From: Narcine bancroftii
Taxonomy: Eukaryota
DNA length: 64,000 nt
Assembly (NCBI RefSeq): GCF_036971445.1
Contig: NC_091469.1
Span: 9,362,001 to 9,426,000 of the forward strand
Reading direction: 5' to 3'
Shown here: one piece after another, positions 1 to 30,220 of the stretch
Numbering within the stretch: position 1 is the stretch's first letter
Layout of the letters: the number at the start of each line of letters is the position of its first letter
Program-made: the position numbers and the translations under genes
Notes under the pieces: model-generated
What the model saw: the letters and a program-made list of their open reading frames with translations, nothing else
What the model was told of the DNA's origin: nothing
The model's database searches: none

Positions 1-632
1 GAGAGGGTAGTTTGTTAGACACGTGCTGAGGAGTATCTGCATTATTACCATTGTCATCATTCCAGATATTCCCATCCCAATCCTCAATTACATCAGGATC
101 GTCGCCATTCATTATCATGGCATGAATACGATATGGATTGGGTTCTACTCCATGCCTTTCCTTATCTGCACAGAGCTGCTGCCGGAGTTTAATATTACGG
201 CAGACAGTTTGAACATGCTTATCTTCCAATTCTTTGGCTCTGTCCTGACTGGTGCGAACAATTTCACTCATCATGGAGCAGCGTTGTCGCATGGCTTCTA
301 GCTCCTCCTCTAATTGCTTTCTCTTGCGCTGAGATTCTACTTCTCTTTGAACTGATTCTGCTTCATGCTGAACGGAGTGGCGCAAGGCTGTGGCCAGCAA
401 CCAAAAACCATCCGTCAGCATCCCCTTTTTAATCAGGAAATCTTTTTTCTCGAAGGAGAGTGGCAACCCGCTCTCCCAGAGGTGCACTTGATGAATCTAA
501 CTTCTCATCCCAACTAATGGGTGGTCCCAACAAAGCCAGGGTATTGGCCAACATGCCAAACCCATCGTCTTTGGAAGTCCATCCAGGAATCAAGAAATGC
601 TCAGGGCTCACCTCTTTCTTTCGGCGAAACAT
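1..632 (-). pseudogene. gag: Retroviral gag-like ORF (ERV-L/class III-like), N-terminal part, runs off the window; one +1 frameshift in an A-run at about 443-448
   Basis: ATG at 632 lies just after the PBS. MFRRKKEVSPEHFLIPGW...LLREK, then after removing one A: DFLIKKGMLTDGFWLLATALRHSVQHEAESVQREVESQRKRKQLEEELEAMRQRCSMMSEIVRTSQDRAKELEDKHVQTVCRNIKLRQQLC...RIHAMIMNGDDPDVIEDWDGNIWNDD, open to base 1. The WLL / coiled coil / WDGxIW layout resembles ERV-L/Fv1-type Gag. Confidence 0.75.
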
Positions 633-641
633 CTTGAGACC

Positions 642-660
642 AATCCTGCTCGCAGCGCCA
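642..660 (-). promoter_or_regulatory. Primer-binding site complementary to the 3' end of tRNA-Ser
   Basis: Minus strand TGGCGCTGCGAGCAGGATT, 2 nt after the LTR-terminal CA; the plus strand reads AATCCTGCTCGCAGCG-CCA, like a vertebrate tRNA-Ser(CGA/TGA) 3' end. Confidence 0.85.
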
Positions 661-662
661 AT

Positions 663-1437
663 TGTCTTGGGTAAACTTATACCTCTCATTTTGTTCATTT
701 TAGATTGGTCACAGTGTTTGAGCTACCGAAAGAAAATAGACACACACACCGAGAGCAGTTCAGTTTAAACAAAAGTTTATTACTAATTTAAAAGCTGATT
801 TCACACTACAATATGCAAGCCCTTTCCAACTATACTTATCAACGCTTGGACTGGTCCCAACTGCCAAAGTGAGGCAACGACTGCACACTTGTAGTAGGTT
901 GTCAGGGCACTGGTAGCAGCTTCTCCACCTCCCCTGACCGGGACGTTGCTCGGACTCTGGCTGTTCTTCCTTCTTGACAAGGGGTGTTCCCACCCCTCGG
1001 AGAGTCTAAACTTCAGTAGCAGGACCACAGGCTTATATACCCCCCAAAACAATTAATCATGCGCCTACTCCTTCTAATATTTGTCAGTCAAAATCAAAAC
1101 TGAACATTACATTCTACAATTTAGAGGATTAATTATTATGGAACCAGGATGTTATGATTTCCTGGTTTATCTCGTAGATACAAAGACTTATTAAAACTTC
1201 TCGAGCAAGACAGGTTGTGACCAATTCGTCAATTTCAGAGTGTTGCATTTGACAACTGCTTTCCCTGGGCCTCACAGTGGAATTCCATTTCAAAGTGTAT
1301 CTTCAGATAAGTCCCCATGGCTGAGTTTAATTACATCTGCTAGTTCTGAAAGTAAGGTGACCTGCGTGTGGACCCAGTGTCGTCAGTTCCACATAAGCAA
1401 AAAGCATCTGGGTACATGGTTTTAATCCTCCATTACA
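663..1437 (-). mobile_element. 5' LTR of the endogenous retrovirus (about 775 bp)
   Basis: Minus strand begins TGTAATGG (1437) and ends ...CCAAGACA (663); TATATAA at 1033-1039; AATAAA at 776-781 followed by a GT-rich tract; PBS directly downstream. Confidence 0.8.
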
Positions 1438-3825: not shown

Positions 3826-6800
3826 TGTAGCATCTACTATGACAGCACGAGGGAATCAAGAGACATCCACATGGTGCCAAGGTAAACCCAGTAACTGACT
3901 TTATTGTTTGAATTCTTCATGCTGCCAGCAGGGAAACACCCACTTCCAGTAACATGTGCGCCAGCTTCTGGAAGTGACATCAGTGTGTCGCGGCATCACT
4001 CCCTGACTGGTGGTGCACCACCCAGAAGCAGTGATGTCCCCCAGGCAACATGTGTTAACTGTGGGCTTCTCAGGAGTGAAGGTGGACCCGCGCCATTTTG
4101 AGTCAGATGACTGGGGCAGAAATTCAGCCCATCTAACCACGCAGTAGTTCGGCCTGCTACCACCCCCATGCCCTCACCCCAGAATTGGTGCCGGCTTCTG
4201 AGTAGGTTACCATACTGGCTTTGGGTGGGCAACCTCTGCATCTGACAGGCTGGCCTGAATCCAGATATGCTGCCCTGAAGTGGTCGATTGTGAACCTGTC
4301 CAGTCAGGAGCGAACGTCCAGTGTAAAAACACTGTCCCATTGCAACACCTCAAATGAGCCTTCATAGGGACACTGTAGGGGTGTTCCTTGCTGTTCTCTC
4401 TGCACCAAGGCATAGTTAATGGACTATAGGCCTGCAGGGATGTGGTAGGATGGAGAGCAGTCTCAGGATGGTGGCAGGGCACCTGTTTACCCACTTGCAC
4501 CCTTAACCTCTGGAGGACATCTAGGGCACTGGTCTGTAGGCCTGGGGTGGGAACAGGTAGATCTTACTTCGGTGCTGTACAGATGCCCAAAAGCATCCAC
4601 AGGAGCTTGTCCACCCTTCAGGCCTTGTTGAGCTTTCAGGATAGCCTTAAGGTGGCAGTGGAAATGCTTGACCAGGCCATTTGCCCGAGGCTGGTAGGCT
4701 GTGGTGTGGTGCAACTGGCTGCTGCAGAACCTAGTTAGGTTAGCCCAAAGCAAGGAAGTGAACTGTGCCCCTCATTCTGAAGTAATGTGGGTTGGGACTC
4801 TGAAATGCACAATCCAGTAGGAGAAAAAGGCTCTGGTGCAAGTCTCTGTCGCACATTGGTAGGGCTTCCAGCCATGGGGTAAAAAAGTTGATTGTTGTGA
4901 ACAGATACTTTAGACCCAACTCACGGGGAGTGGGCCAACAATGTCCATGTGCTCAAATCGGAGCTGCACCAGCTCAAAAGTCTGGAGTGGGGCCTTGGTG
5001 TGTCTGTGCACCTTGACATGTTGGCACCACTAACAAGCTTTAGCCCTCAGGGTCACATCATGGTGGAGGCAGTGCCACATGAACTTGTCCAACAGCAGGC
5101 AGACCTTAAGGAGGGGAGGGACAGGCCAGCGAACTCTCACTGTCACCAGGTCGTGGGTAGGTCTGGGGAAGCCCATGGATACATCACACAGCAAGGACAG
5201 GCCCCGGTGAGGGGCAGAAATTGCTGACCTTCAGGTTGGTGATGGCTATCCAGTAGGCCTGGTCATCTGCATCCTCAGTTTGGTCCCTGGCCACCTAGGT
5301 GACATCAAGCCCTCCTGAGGTGGCAGCAATTGTGGGTTTGGATAATGTATCGGCCATCATGTTGGATTTGCTTGCAATGTGGCATATGTCCGTTGTGTAC
5401 TCAGATGTAGGAGAGGTGATGCTGTTACCTTGACAACCATGGGTCTGAGGCCTTGCTGAGAATAGGTGAGTGGTATGTGGTCTGTGTAGGTGGTGAAAAC
5501 CCTTCTATCATGTACCTGAAGTGTCTCATCACCTGGTACAAGGCCAACAGCTTATGGTCATACATGCTGTATTTGAGCTCTGGTGTCCGGAGATGTCTGC
5601 TGAAGAAGGCCAGAAGGCACCATTGCTCATCGACCCATTGCTCCAACACTATGCCCACTGCTCTGTCTGATACATCTCTTGTAAGAGCTGGGGGGGGGGG
5701 GGGGGGGAAGAAGCTAGAATCTGGGTGGGCCAGGACTGTGGACTGTACTAGAACCGCTTTCGTGGTCTGGAACAGTTCTGTGGTTTCCGGAGTCCACTGG
5801 AGCATCTTGTTACTGAGCTTGGGGGTCAAACAGGGGCTGCATGAGGGTGGTCGTTTTCTGCGGGAAGCGATGATAAAAATTCACCATCCCTAGGAACTCC
5901 TGCAGGACTTTGTTTGCACTCAGCTTGAGAGTTCTGGATGGCCTTGACCTTGTCCAGCAGTGGTTTGACTCTCTCTTGGGTGATAGTGTCTCAGGAAATT
6001 GATTCTCTCTAGGCCAAACTGGCACTTGGCTGGGTTCACCAAGAGTCCAAACTACTGCAACCTGTTAAAAGGTGAATCAGGTGTGTCCTGGCATCAGGGC
6101 TAGCAATGAGGATGTCGCCCAGGTAGACAATGAGGTTGAGGTCCCTGTCAACCATGCCCATAAGCCACAAACATCTGGGTTACATTCTTTTATCCAAACG
6201 GCATCCACAGGAATTCAAAAAGGCCAAAGGGTGTGATAATGGCAGTTTTCGGTACGTCACTGAGATGCACCAGGATCTTGTGGTACCCTTTGACAAGGTC
6301 TACCTTGGAAAAGACTCAGCAGCCTTTGAGCTTTGTGGCAAAGGCCTGGGCATGTGGGATAGAGTACCTATCTTGACTGTAGCATCATTAGGCTATCTGT
6401 AGACTCCGCACTGGTGCCAACCTCTGGAGCTCTTCTGGTACCATGTGGAGTGGGGAGGCCCAGAGGCTGTTTGAATAGCAGATGATTCCCAGCTCCTCCG
6501 CAGTGGCGAACCAGGACTTGGCTTGTTGGAGTTTGTCTTGTGGGAGGCACTGAGTCTGTGCATACATTGGAGGCCCAGTGATCTCAATGTGGTGCTCCAT
6601 GCCAAGTGGTAGTCTGGCATTGTGGAAATTTGGTGCCAGTCAGGCCAGGTACATAGACAATAGGCAGGTATACTCATTTCTATCCAAAGCGTGAATTCAT
6701 AATAACAGTAAAGGACATTGCCGCAGAGTAAGGGGGTATGACTGAAATGTGGTAGCGTCCACCAAACAACATTGGTCACGTCCACCAAAAGTTCATGTCT

Positions 6801-11051: not shown

Positions 11052-11364
11052 TTCTTTTTCTTTCTTTGGCTTGGCTTCGTGGACGAAGATTTATGGAGGG
11101 GGTAAATGTTCACGTCAGCTGCAGGCTCGTTTGTGGCTGACAAGTCCAATGCGGGACAGGCAGACACGGTTGCAGCGGTTGCAGGGGAAAATTGGTTGGT
11201 TGGGGTTGGGTTTTTCCCTCCTTTGCCTTTTGTCAGTGAAGTGGGCTCTGCGGTCTTCTTCAAAGGAGGTTGCTGCCCGCCGAACTGTTAGGCGCCAAGA
11301 TGCACGGTTTGAGGTGATATCAGCCCACTGGTGGTGGTCAATGTGGCAGGCACCAAGAGATTTC
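11052..11364 (-). mobile_element. 5'-truncated RTE LINE (about 310 bp)
   Basis: KSLGACHIDHHQW...CNRCNRVCLSRIGLVSHKRACS* plus the same 3' UTR and tail as the other RTE copies. Confidence 0.9.
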
Positions 11365-17290: not shown

Positions 17291-17452
17291 TGTAGCAGGC
17301 GCACAGCACGGTAATGCGAACTGCCACCGTCAGTTGACAGACTGTTCACTAACGAGCTCATTAACAGACAGGGAATAAAAGGTCCGTGTATGTCTGCAAT
17401 AAACCAGTCTTGAGTTGAATACCTTTGTGTGTGTTTGCCTTTATTTAGTAGC
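17291..17452 (+). mobile_element. Short LTR-like element inserted in the L1
   Basis: TGTAGCAG start, AATAAA followed by a GT-rich U5-like tract, ends ...AGTAGCA. Confidence 0.55.
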
Positions 17453-17462
17453 ATTTTTTTTG

Positions 17463-19152
17463 GGGGGGGAAGCATCCGAGGCACTCTAGTATTTGCCAAA
17501 GCCCTTTCCTGCTCACGGTGTCAAAGGCTTTGGTGAGGTCAACAAAGGCGACGAAGAGTCCTTTGTTTTGTTCTCTGCACTTTTTTTGGAGCTGTCTGAG
17601 GGCAAAGACCATGTCAGTAGTTCCTTTGTTTGCGCGAAACCCGCACTGTGATTCTGGGAGGACATTTTCGGTGACACTAGGTATTAGTCTATTAAGGAGA
17701 ATCCTAGCGAAGATTTTGCCTACAATGGAGAGCAGCGTGATTCTCCTGTAGTTTGAGCAGTCTGATTTCTCGCCTTTGTTTTTGTACAGGTTGATGATGA
17801 TGGCATCACGAAGGTCCTGAGGCAGCTTTCCTTGGTCCCAGCAGAGCATGAAAAACTCATGCAGTTTGGTATGCAGAGCTTTGCCGCCAGCCTTCCAGAC
17901 CTCTGGGGGGGATTCCATCCATACCTGCTGCTTTGCCACTTTTCAGTTGTTCAATTGCCTTATATGTCTCTTCCCGGGTAAGGACCTCATCCAGCTCTAG
18001 CCTCAAGGATTGTTGAGGGAGCTGGAGCAGGGCGGATTCTTGGACTGAGCGGTTGGCACTGAAAAGGGATTGGAAGTGTTCTGACCATTGATTGGGGATG
18101 GAGATCTTGTCGCTGAGGAGGACTTCGCCGTCTGAGCTGCGCAGAGGGCTTTGGACTTGGGGTGAGGGGCTGTACACAGCCTTTAGTGTCTCATAAAAAC
18201 CCCCTGAAGTCGCCAATGTCGGTGCTAAGCTGGGTTCGTTTGGCGAGGCTAGTCCACCACTCATTTTGGATCTCCCGGAGTTTGCGCTGAAGGTGGCTGC
18301 ATGCGTGACGGAAGGCTCGTTTTTCCTCTGGCCAGGAAGGCTTTGCAAGGTGAGCCTGGTGGGCAGATTGCCTCTTTGCCAGCAGCTCCTATATTTCCTG
18401 GATGTTTTCGTCAAACCAGTCCTTGTTTTTCCTGGAAGAGAAGCCCAGTACCTCTTCAGTGGATTGCAGTATGGCCGTTTTCAGCTGATCCCAGAGAGTT
18501 TCAGGAGACGTGTCTGTGAGGCAATTTGCATCCTCGAGCTTTGCTTGGAGGTTTGCCTGGAAGTTTCCTCTCACTATGTCTGACTGCAAGTTTCCAACAT
18601 TGAACCTCTTTCTGGGGGCTCCACTTTTCTTGAACTTTGGCTTGAAGTGAAGGTTGAACTTGTAGCGAACAAGCCGGTGGTCAGTGTGGCATTCCGCGCT
18701 GGGCATGACCCTGGTGTGGAGCACATCTCGTTTGTCTCTTCCTCGCACCAGAACGTAGTCCAGGAAGTGCCAGTGTTTGGATCGGAGATTCATCCAGGTA
18801 GTCTTCAGGCTGTCTCTCCGCTGGAAAAGGGTGTTAGTAATGACAAGCCGCTGTTCTGCACAGAGTTCCAACAGGAGGCACCCATTGTCATTGCACTTGC
18901 CGACAACATACTTGCCAAGGATTCCTGGCCAGGTTTCTGAGTCTTTGCTGACGTGAGAGTTGAAGTCGCCAAGGATGACAACTTTGTCAGCTGTAGGGGT
19001 GCGTTGGATGAGGTTGCGCAGGTCAGTGTAGAACTTGTCCTTTTCTGCTGGTTCCGCCTGAAGGGTTGGAGCGTAGACACTGATGAGGGTGATGCGACGC
19101 TTGTTTTGAAGGGGGAGTCGCATGGACATGATCCGGTCAGTAGCTGCTTCAA
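17463..19152 (-). mobile_element. Internal RTE LINE fragment: APE endonuclease plus RT N-terminal half, with frameshifts
   Basis: ITLISVYAPT, VILGDFNSHV, WHFLDYVLVR, HTDHRLV; SNYRRITLLSIVGKIFAR, PESQCGFR, FVDLTKAFDTVSR. Confidence 0.92.
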
Positions 19153-19958
19153 GGCTATAATTCTTATTTTGAAAAAGGAAAAAAAGCAACAGAATGTGCC
19201 TCTTATAGACCAATTTCATTACTTAATGTTAATACGAAGATTTTATCTAAAGTGTTAGCGTATGGATTAGAAAATATTTTACTGACATTTATTAACTCTG
19301 ACCAGACAGGTTTTATTAAAAACCGCTATTCCTGCTATAACATATTTTCTTTCTACCCATGCAATTGAATGTGTTATTTTTCTATCTTAACAGTGTAGGG
19401 TGACTATCTCATTGGTGTAGTCTGCAGAGTCTCGCTAGGATGATTGGTGCGAATGGACTAAGAGGCCACAAACCGAAACTTTGGATGGCATTGAAGTGCA
19501 CCTTGAGCATGAACCCCATCGCTGATTGGCTGATTCCAGGAGCACTGTGGTGCCTCGTTCGTGGTCGATCTGGTACCATTGCCATGATCCTGAGAAAGAA
19601 CCCAAGAGTGAAGACAAGGTTAGAAGGATAAGCATAGAATTCTAATCATAGAAAAGCCTGGGAAATCTTTCTGTGAAAATCATTTTGGAATTGATTAGAT
19701 TTGGCTACATCTGTTAGTCAGGGACATTTTATTGTTGAACTCAGATGCTAGTAAGATTAAAAACAGTCTGAAAATCATTTAGGAAATCAGGGTTTGGAAA
19801 TTGGACAGGCTATGGACAAAAGCAATATGGGCACCCCAGTATAGCAAATGTGTTATCTGCATCTGAACCATGGTAAAGACTGTCTTCACTTGCCAGCTGG
19901 TTAAACGAAGAGATGAGCAAATGAGAACCTGGTAAATTAAGAGTATGAATTTATTTGG

Positions 19959-28995: not shown

Positions 28996-30220
28996 GTCAG
29001 ATACAGCAATGAGCTCTCTGAACCCTTCTCCATTAACAATGGCGTGAAGCAAGGCTGCGTTGTCGCACCAACCCTCTTTTCAATCTTCTTCAGCATGATG
29101 CTGAACCAAGCCATGAAAGACCTCAACAATGAAGACGCTGTTTACATCCGGTACCGCACGATAGCAGTCTCTTCAATCTGAGGTGCCTGCAAGCTCACAC
29201 CAAGACACAAGAGCAACTTGTCCATGAACTACTCTTTGCAGACGATGCCGCTTTAGTTGCCCATTCAGAGCCAGCTCTTCAGTGCTTGATGTCCTGTTTT
29301 GTGGAAATTGCCAAAATGTTTGGCCTGGAAGTCAGCCTGAAGAAAATTGAGGTCCACCATCAGCCAGCTCCCCACCATGACTACCAGCCCCCCCACATCT
29401 CCATCGGGCACACAAAACTCAAAACGGTCAACCAGTTTACCTATCTCGGCTGCATCATTTCATCGGATGCAAGGATTGACAACGAGATAGACAACAGACT
29501 CACCAAGGCAAATAGCACCTTTGGAAGACTACACAAAAGAGTCTGGAAAAACAACCAAATGAAAAACCTCACAAAGATAAGCGTATACAGAGCCATTGTC
29601 ATACCCACACTCCTTTTCGGCTCTGAATCATGGGTCCTCTACCGGCATCATCTACGGCTCCTAGAACGCTTCCACCAGCGTTGTCTCTGCTCCATCCTCA
29701 ACATTCATTGGAGCAACTTCATCCCTAACATTGAAGTACTCGAAATGGCAGAGGCCGACAGCATCGAATCCACGCTGTTGAAGATCCAACTGCGCTGGAT
29801 AGGTCACGTCTCTAGAATGGAGGACCTTCGCCTTCCCAAGATTGTGTTATATAGCGAGCTCTCCACTGGCCATCGTGTCAGAGGTGCACCAAAGAAGAGG
29901 TACAAGGACTGCCTAAAGAAATCTCTTGGTGCCTGCCACATTGACCACCACCAGTGGGCTGATATCGCCTCAAACTGTGCATCTTGGCGCCTCACAGTTC
30001 GGCGGGCAGCAACCTCCTTTGAAGAAGACCGCAGAGCCCACCTCACTGACAAAAGACAATGGAGGAAAAACCCAACACCCAACCCCAACCAACCAATTTT
30101 CCCCTGCAACCGTGTCTGCCTGTCCCGCATCAGACTTGTCAGCCACAAACGAGCCTGCAGCTGACGTGGACTTTTACCCCTCCATAAATCTTCGTCCGCG
30201 AAGCCAAGCCAAAGAAGAGA
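28996..30220 (+). mobile_element. Young 5'-truncated RTE LINE (RT C-terminal half plus C-terminal zinc-finger-like motif)
   Basis: NGVKQGCVVAPTLF, LFADD, a 292-aa ORF with FTYLG...LLERFHQRCL...LRWIGHVSRM...SRIRLVSHKRACS; tail aagccaagccaaagaagaga. Confidence 0.93.

What the first reader, a model, noticed from the sequence alone, without database searches (positions are those of the whole stretch)
1..1437. Well-preserved endogenous retrovirus 5' end: tRNA-Ser PBS and ERV-L/class III-like Gag in a probable cartilaginous fish
Seen: an intact LTR (TG...CA, TATA, AATAAA, a long R region of roughly 250 nt), a 19-nt Ser PBS, and about 210 Gag codons with one frameshift and no internal stop once it is corrected. 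The ORF track misses the second half because it runs off the window. Known: a WLL / coiled coil / WDGxIW N-terminus is typical of ERV-L/Fv1-type Gag, and the class III element HERV-S is Ser-primed. Inference: a young, possibly near-complete provirus of a poorly sampled fish class III or loki-like lineage continues to the left.
Basis: partly seen in the sequence, partly recalled or inferred. Interest (0 to 1): 0.75.

Follow-up and report, generated by a model that had tools for sequence, protein, structure and literature searches.

The report
Worn retrovirus copy in electric ray
This is the front end (one terminal repeat, a serine-tRNA primer site and a frameshifted capsid gene) of one worn copy of a very abundant fossil retrovirus family, likely of the ERV-L type and likely from an electric ray, a class already reported as the commonest retroviral fossil in cartilaginous fishes.

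Summary
The anatomy is real. On the minus strand: a 775-bp LTR (1437-663; both ends confirmed by other copies), a 19-nt PBS whose sequence ends tRNA-Ser genes (83 of 85 tRNA calls), and 67+143 gag codons split by one frameshift. Closest proteins are Narcine bancroftii gene models (85-93% identical), one named Fv1-like. The capsid of one matches an Fv1 cluster by predicted structure (TM 0.85, next best 0.54). A stingray relative joins this Gag start to a YIDD reverse transcriptase closer to MLV/foamy than to Ty3. So it is likely an ERV-L-related (class III) element; lokiretrovirus is unsupported. 'Young, well preserved, poorly sampled' fails: it is one copy of a very high-copy family, differs from most copies at 21 or more sites, and clade III is reported as the majority ERV class in cartilaginous fish. 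The family's own pol, 3' LTR and TSD could not be seen. One lead remains: the first ATGs after the TATA box lie in U5, in frame with gag, just behind a candidate R-U5 intron that holds the poly(A) signal (joint seen in 1 of 4 putative RNA runs).

The parts
663..1437 (-). 5' LTR, 775 bp, TGT...ACA
   Evidence: sequence; other copies leave the sequence at 662-663 and 1437, depth collapses beyond 1437
1033..1039 (-). TATA box (TATATAA) near the U3/R border; start site estimated near 1010
   Evidence: sequence; start site not mapped
776..781 (-). poly(A) signal AATAAA, followed by a GT/T-rich stretch
   Evidence: sequence
723..835 (-). candidate R-U5 intron (GT...AG, pyrimidine tract before the AG) that contains the poly(A) signal
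   Evidence: joint 722-836 in 4 contigs of putative RNA run X5, none in DNA runs X1, X6, X10; not seen in X7, X8, X9, X11; contexts. Weak lead
687..698 (-). two ATGs (698, 689) inside U5, in frame with gag; the first ATGs after the TATA box
   Evidence: N. bancroftii models P0001, P0006, P0007 begin at these codons, which is an annotation choice and not proof of use
642..660 (-). primer-binding site for tRNA-Ser, 2 nt after the LTR
   Evidence: 83 of 85 tRNA calls Ser (TGA 48, CGA 26, GCT 5, AGA 4; Ile 1, Trp 1)
429..632 (-). gag piece a (67 codons from ATG 632, 89 from ATG 698), ends in a stop at the frame break
   Evidence: 91-93% identical to P0001, P0006, P0007
2..430 (-). gag piece b (143 codons): FWL, predicted coiled-coil helix, WDGNIW; runs off the window before the capsid domain
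   Evidence: 85-90% identical to N. bancroftii models, 32-46% to stingray and whale-shark models; long helix in a low-confidence model of P0006
1438..1442 (+). flanking 5-mer AAGAA, candidate half of a target-site duplication
   Evidence: sequence; other end not available

Best explanation
This is the 5' LTR, serine-tRNA primer site and frameshifted gag start of one copy of a high-copy LTR retroelement family, likely an ERV-L-related (class III) endogenous retrovirus of an electric ray. Shown: the LTR, PBS, broken gag, the high copy level and the Fv1/ERV-L-like Gag of sister copies. Inferred from retroviral biology: when active, the family was transcribed from the U3 TATA promoter, used the AATAAA in its 3' LTR, primed reverse transcription with host tRNA-Ser, packaged RNA with a non-myristoylated Gag (basic N-terminus, coiled coil, Fv1-like capsid with MHR, PSAP late motif, no zinc knuckle) and integrated with a probable 5-bp duplication. 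The very high copy level suggests spread mainly by retrotransposition in the germline (inferred). This copy cannot make full Gag in one frame and has aged for some millions of years at least. Its pol and env status is unknown.
For: Homologs at 85-93% identity in N. bancroftii, one named 'Friend virus susceptibility protein 1-like' by NCBI. Atlas model of P0006 residues 312-505 matches the 'Friend virus susceptibility 1' cluster at TM 0.85 over 188 residues, the other 9 rows 0.42-0.54. MHR pattern of PMC8278194 Table 2 in 3 of 7 proteins (P0002, P0003, P0006), PSAP in P0001, CCHC box in 0 of 7. Stingray model P0004 has a Gag start homologous to piece b (E 3.8e-8) and an RT with DYRELN and YIDD, scoring 151 bits to MLV-type RT, 126 to foamy and 73 to Ty3-type RT; YIDD is called typical of ERV-L-like class III. 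Summed contig depth about three orders of magnitude above the flank in X1, with holders under four coded organism labels. Same layout as frog XtERV-S: Ser PBS, 705-bp TGT..ACA LTR, 5-bp TSD.
Against: No pol of this family was seen; the RT evidence comes from a relative only 34-35% identical in Gag and from a low-quality gene model. No RT tree was built. No Pfam Gag or Fv1 family hit for the window pieces (E<=1), P0001/P0002 or P0003-P0007 (E<=0.01). No mammalian ERV-L or Fv1 sequence came back from three homolog searches and one phmmer scan, and P0002 had no real hit among solved structures. By language-model features the top Atlas rows were retrotransposon-gag clusters (0.90), with Fv1 at rank 11 (0.88). 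The TM score rests on a weak model (pLDDT 0.56). TGT..ACA ends also fit Sushi and Gmr1 Gypsy LTRs.
Confidence: 0.82

Rival explanations
1. Same Gag lineage, but this copy or most of the family is non-autonomous: LTR-gag-LTR or internally deleted, mobilised in trans like MaLR, BHIKHARI or the deleted XtERV-S copies. This refines the best explanation more than it replaces it.
For: No Gag-Pol protein among 600-2000 aa candidates or from the profile search; very high copy level; 19 deleted copies accompany XtERV-S; Bik-1 is a gag-only high-copy element.
Against: The searches are weak for this question (word-based; gag and pol may be separate ORFs). A stingray relative has RT in the same gene model as the Gag start.
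Confidence: 0.3
2. One reading: a young, near-complete provirus continues left of the window.
For: All LTR signals and the PBS are present; CpG o/e 0.41-0.54 against 0.15 in the flank; some U3 stretches match contigs without a difference (X6 1328-1437, X8 1159-1275, X11 1277-1430); a contig of X10 runs 243 letters past the left edge.
Against: 21 of 40 shown variant rows are nearly private to this copy, a floor of 1.5%, or 7-67 My with the two rates quoted in PMC4422223; the frameshift; piece b is 85-87% identical to sister Gags that are 91-93% identical to each other. Private differences could also mark a rare subfamily.
Confidence: 0.12
3. A lokiretrovirus or BHIKHARI-like element.
For: Bik-1 Gag also has an N-terminal coiled coil, so that feature does not discriminate. 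No loki Gag was available to compare directly.
Against: [quoted passage not shown]
Confidence: 0.04
4. A Ty3/Gypsy LTR retrotransposon.
For: LTR ends fit Sushi and Gmr1 patterns; feature-based Atlas hits to retrotransposon-gag clusters; a gag frame starting inside the LTR is recalled from Ty1-type retrotransposons (from memory).
Against: The relative's RT scores twice as high to MLV as to Ty3; Ty3-capsid clusters reach only TM 0.50-0.54 against 0.85 for Fv1.
Confidence: 0.04

Closest known systems
XtERV-S of Xenopus tropicalis (class III, ERV-L-related; PMC8278194)
   Same: Ser PBS of 19 nt, LTR of 700-800 bp with TGT..ACA ends, TATA and AATAAA about 250-290 nt apart, non-myristoylated Gag with basic N-terminus, MHR, PSAP and no Cys-His box; predicted splice donor inside the LTR
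   Different: XtERV-S has a 158-nt leader, is intact and low-copy. Here 9 nt separate PBS and ATG 632, the gag frame opens inside U5, the copy is broken and the family is very abundant. Sequences were not compared directly; pol, dUTPase and env are unseen here.
Mammalian ERV-L (MuERV-L, HERV-L), HERV-S and Fv1
   Different: No sequence-level hit to any mammalian member in four searches; HERV-L mostly uses Leu or Met primers; no sign that this copy is a domesticated gene like Fv1
Clade III / clade Huo ERVs of cartilaginous fishes (bioRxiv 2023.10.17.562709; PMC6001957; CmiERV lineage I, PMC4422223)
   Same: Host group and class; clade III reported as the majority of ERV RT hits in cartilaginous fish
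   Different: Those were RT-based surveys in few genomes; no description of a ray family with this LTR-gag layout appeared in my searches. Relationship to the SnRV-like CmiERV lineage is untested.
RefSeq gene models of Narcine bancroftii XP_069772250, XP_069792282, XP_069797066, XP_069743339
   Same: Other copies of the same family, 85-93% identical in Gag
   Different: Annotated as host genes (Fv1-like, uncharacterized, SPACA9 isoform); P0001, P0006 and P0007 run in one frame through the region where the window copy breaks
Foamy viruses (PMC3694450)
   Same: Splice donor in R upstream of the poly(A) signal, if the candidate donor at 835 is real
   Different: Here the candidate acceptor also lies inside the LTR; Gag has an MHR, which foamy Gag lacks

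Membership tests
LTR retroelement (Ortervirales) | LTR with TG..CA ends, promoter and poly(A) signal | tested here: met
   boundaries from other copies
LTR retroelement (Ortervirales) | tRNA primer-binding site just after the 5' LTR | tested here: met
LTR retroelement (Ortervirales) | second LTR and target-site duplication | not testable with these tools
   off the window; no genome held
Class III / ERV-L-related ERV | RT groups with ERV-L, HERV-S and kin in a tree | not testable with these tools
   no family pol and no named class III RT sequences in hand; proxy only: relative P0004 has YIDD and ranks MLV > foamy > Ty3
Class III / ERV-L-related ERV | Gag similar to ERV-L/Fv1 Gag by structure | tested here: met
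   sister copy P0006, TM 0.85 to the Fv1 cluster, next 0.54; predicted models on both sides; my own two folds failed
Class III / ERV-L-related ERV | Gag similar to ERV-L/Fv1 Gag by sequence profile | tested here: inconclusive
   no Pfam or mammalian hit; only NCBI's automatic name for P0002
Class III / ERV-L-related ERV | Gag motif set of PMC8278194 Table 2: MHR present, late motif, no myristoylation glycine, no Cys-His box | tested here: met
   on sister gene models; their C-termini are gene-model ends and may be incomplete; a GQR motif was not found in the N. bancroftii models
Class III / ERV-L-related ERV | 5-bp TSD; dUTPase after integrase (ERV-L proper) | not testable with these tools
   needs the left part of the locus
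Lokiretrovirus | RT sister to all retroviruses; env like paramyxovirus F; CGIN1-like integrase | not testable with these tools
   features from PMC7947760; pol and env unseen; no positive sign
Ty3/Gypsy (Metaviridae) | RT closer to Ty3 than to retroviruses | tested here: not met
   proxy RT of relative P0004: 73 bits to Ty3-type against 151 to MLV-type

The most novel reading that the evidence does not exclude
A very high-copy class III retrovirus family of rays whose gag gene starts inside the LTR: a leader free of ATGs runs to two in-frame ATGs in U5, the primer-binding site is translated as part of Gag, and a small intron wholly inside R-U5 removes the 5' poly(A) signal to make the gag mRNA. 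That would be a further solution to the 5'-LTR polyadenylation problem, related to the foamy-virus donor mechanism.
Probability: 0.2. Interest if true: 0.6.

Novelty: new member of a known kind. Interest (0 to 1): 0.33.

Why it matters
As it stands, modestly. It adds an apparently undescribed, very abundant ray family to a class known from cartilaginous fish, with relatives in a stingray and the whale shark, useful for dating ERV-L-like lineages deep in jawed vertebrates. It also shows that several RefSeq 'genes' of N. bancroftii (an Fv1-like gene, a SPACA9 isoform) are Gag copies of this repeat. It would matter more if the gag start in U5 and the R-U5 intron hold up, because the 9-nt gap between PBS and ATG 632 leaves no classical leader for packaging and splice signals.

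Tried and rejected
Own genome: none held, so the left extension, 3' LTR, TSD, pol and env were not examined. Pfam on the two window pieces gave only weak coiled-coil matches. Solved-structure search with P0002: nothing. Longer relatives of P0002: 0 of 7993 scored candidates. Profile search with alignment A2: only the 2 known proteins of 7999 candidates. Viral contigs with P0006 and P0004: 3 and 2 pattern matches, none confirmed. Atlas with P0002: no usable hit. AlphaFold2 on A2 and A3: mean pLDDT 38 and 32, so no fold search was run. No RT tree: no reference class III sequences were available through the tools. No holder is on record as RNA; X5, X7, X8, X9 are guessed RNA, with almost no depth on the unique flank, so expression is not claimed and depth was not used to rank parts. 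The splice-like joint of X5 did not recur in X7, X8, X9 or X11 (likeness 88 against 85). X1 contig 8 matches 1410-1700 exactly but has only 28 letters inside the LTR, under the tool's bridging rule, so it is not counted as proof of the junction. TGT..ACA and Ser priming were rejected as class markers. The R-U5-leader folds at z -2.36 (1 of 100 shuffles): noted, not interpreted. XtERV-S supplements: 0 hits for six terms in 9 files; figures that are pictures would not show. Earlier scan notes: nothing by sequence or words.

Full report
Observation. The element reads on the minus strand. The LTR spans 1437-663 (775 bp, TGT...ACA) with TATATAA at 1039 and AATAAA at 781. A 2-nt spacer, a 19-nt PBS (660-642) and 9 nt lead to ATG 632. 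Gag piece a has 67 codons and ends in a stop at 431-429; piece b (430-2) has 143 codons and runs off the window. No second LTR lies in the window and no genome is held. The LTR ends are confirmed by other copies: contigs leave the sequence at 662-663 and 1437, and summed depth in DNA run X1 drops from about 80,000 to 9-53 beyond the LTR.

Primer site. A scan of metagenome contigs for the 16 PBS bases behind a T-loop motif gave 123 loci. In 82 the match was the 3' end of an ARAGORN tRNA, 41 had no call; 83 of 85 calls were Ser, mostly TGA and CGA anticodons. The motif selects for tRNAs, not for the isotype, so Ser is a fair result, though the host's own tRNAs were not seen. PBS use is an unstable trait (PMC4724089, passages), so this does not classify the element.

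Host and family. Piece b found two Narcine bancroftii models, and the cluster look-up added two more. A phmmer scan of 1.84 billion proteins gave 5 hits: the first two, two from Hemitrygon akajei and one from Rhincodon typus. Window pieces are 85-93% identical to the N. bancroftii models, which are 91-93% identical to each other over the same region. The host is therefore likely this electric ray or a close relative; an earlier AI note on the same genome also says electric ray (not independent). Eleven of 13 listed runs hold the stretch, under four organism codes. Summed depth on gag in X1 is 20,000-83,000 against 9-53 on the flank. That is no copy number, but it marks a very high-copy repeat.

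Age. One search lists 118 variable places and shows 40; at 21 of these 40, 90% or more of X1 depth carries another letter (14 in gag, 7 in the LTR). That is a floor of 1.5%, or 7-67 My with the mammalian and assumed shark rates in PMC4422223 (part 1 of 2 read). The bracket is crude, and a rare subfamily would give the same picture. CpG is less depleted than in the flank and some U3 stretches match other contigs exactly, so the copy is not ancient either. It is an ordinary worn copy.

Class. The capsid domain lies outside the window, so sister copies were tested. NCBI names P0002 Fv1-like. The Atlas model of P0006 (312-505) matches the Fv1 cluster at TM 0.85, the other nine rows 0.42-0.54; by features, retrotransposon-gag clusters rank first and Fv1 eleventh. 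The MHR pattern from Table 2 of PMC8278194 (part 2 of 8, section 11 and passages read) is in P0002, P0003 and P0006, PSAP in P0001, a Cys-His box in none of 7. The stingray model P0004 joins a homologous Gag start to an RT with YIDD that scores 151 bits to MLV-type, 126 to foamy and 73 to Ty3-type RT. Against: no Pfam Gag hit, no mammalian ERV-L or Fv1 in any sequence search, both my folds failed, no pol of the family itself was seen and no tree was built. TGT..ACA ends are shared with Gypsy clades (PMC3601003, passages). I put ERV-L-related class III at about 0.8. Lokiretroviruses are not reported from cartilaginous fish in the two of four parts read or by term search (PMC7947760).

How it most likely worked. 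By established retroviral biology (inferred here): transcription from the U3 TATA box near 1010, 3' processing at the AATAAA of the 3' LTR, tRNA-Ser priming, packaging by a non-myristoylated Gag, integration with a probable 5-bp duplication. The copy level suggests spread by germline retrotransposition. This copy cannot make full Gag in one frame. Whether the family carries its own pol is open.

An unexpected layout. After the TATA box there is no ATG for 341 nt (P(0)=0.026), and the three ATGs that follow (698, 689, 632) are all in the gag frame; the first two lie in U5, upstream of the PBS. Three N. bancroftii models begin there, though annotators take the first in-frame ATG, and position 697 varies in 46% of depth. 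In putative RNA run X5, 4 contigs skip 723-835 with GT..AG ends on the minus strand and 2 more end within 3 nt of the same acceptor; the skipped part holds the AATAAA; DNA runs X1, X6 and X10 show no such joint. It did not recur in X7, X8, X9 or X11. Foamy viruses use a donor upstream of the poly(A) signal to suppress 5' polyadenylation (PMC3694450, abstract only), and XtERV-S has a predicted donor in its LTR. A search for a gag start upstream of the PBS gave no clear retroviral precedent among 10 listed papers (listing only). This is a lead at about 0.2.

Novelty. Clade III is reported as the majority of ERV RT hits in cartilaginous fish (bioRxiv 2023.10.17.562709, section 7 and passages; Table 2 is a picture and the supplements are closed). 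Clade Huo, which includes class III ERVs, spans all major vertebrate lineages (PMC6001957, section 7). An SnRV-like lineage is known in elephant shark. A frog class III element with a Ser PBS is published (PMC8278194). Fv1 derives from MuERV-L-like Gag (PMC5930517, passages). PMC10435555 (passages) screened 13 cartilaginous genomes; its supplements, which I did not read, could list a relative. Searches for a ray family listed no description, but Repbase and Dfam were not searchable. The scan's notes held nothing on this sequence. Verdict: a real feature, a new member of a known kind, interest 0.33.

Noticed in passing
window 699-1039, minus strand: No ATG in 341 nt after the TATA box (first-order Markov mean 3.5, P(0)=0.026; U3 has 11 in 398 nt); the only three ATGs down to 600 are all in the gag frame. 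Position 697 varies in 46% of X1 depth, so ATG 698 is not fixed in the family.
   Followed up: partly
window 722-847: Three joints in putative RNA run X5 (722-836, 725-836, 723-847; 6 contigs) end within 3 nt of one pyrimidine-tract acceptor; absent from 3 DNA runs and from 4 other runs.
   Followed up: partly
window 947-948: Many contigs in most runs diverge here, and summed DNA depth is far higher on R-U5 than on U3: possibly LTR subfamilies that share R-U5 and differ upstream.
   Followed up: no
window 1048-1201: A contig in X5 and one in X9 go back 154 bases with 39 extra letters: a tandem duplication in U3 of some copy.
   Followed up: no
P0001 (XP_069743339), P0005 (XP_020392837): Gene models named as host genes (SPACA9 isoform in N. 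bancroftii; SDCCAG8 homolog in whale shark) consist wholly or at the N-terminus of this Gag: annotation artefacts or chimeric transcripts.
   Followed up: no
window 17445-19222 (-), 29133-30164 (+), 2499-2813, 11052-11364: Non-LTR retrotransposon pieces (endonuclease and RT hits); the 300-bp end recurs three times at 91-93% identity. RTE-like by my recall, not tested.
   Followed up: partly
window 5425-5880 (-): Decayed LTR-retrotransposon pol fragment (RT_RNaseH hits), unrelated to the element by BLAST.
   Followed up: partly
runs X10 and X11: Two further coded organisms hold the family at depth 2-19 in few contigs, against thousands in organisms A and B: low-copy relatives or carry-over.
   Followed up: no
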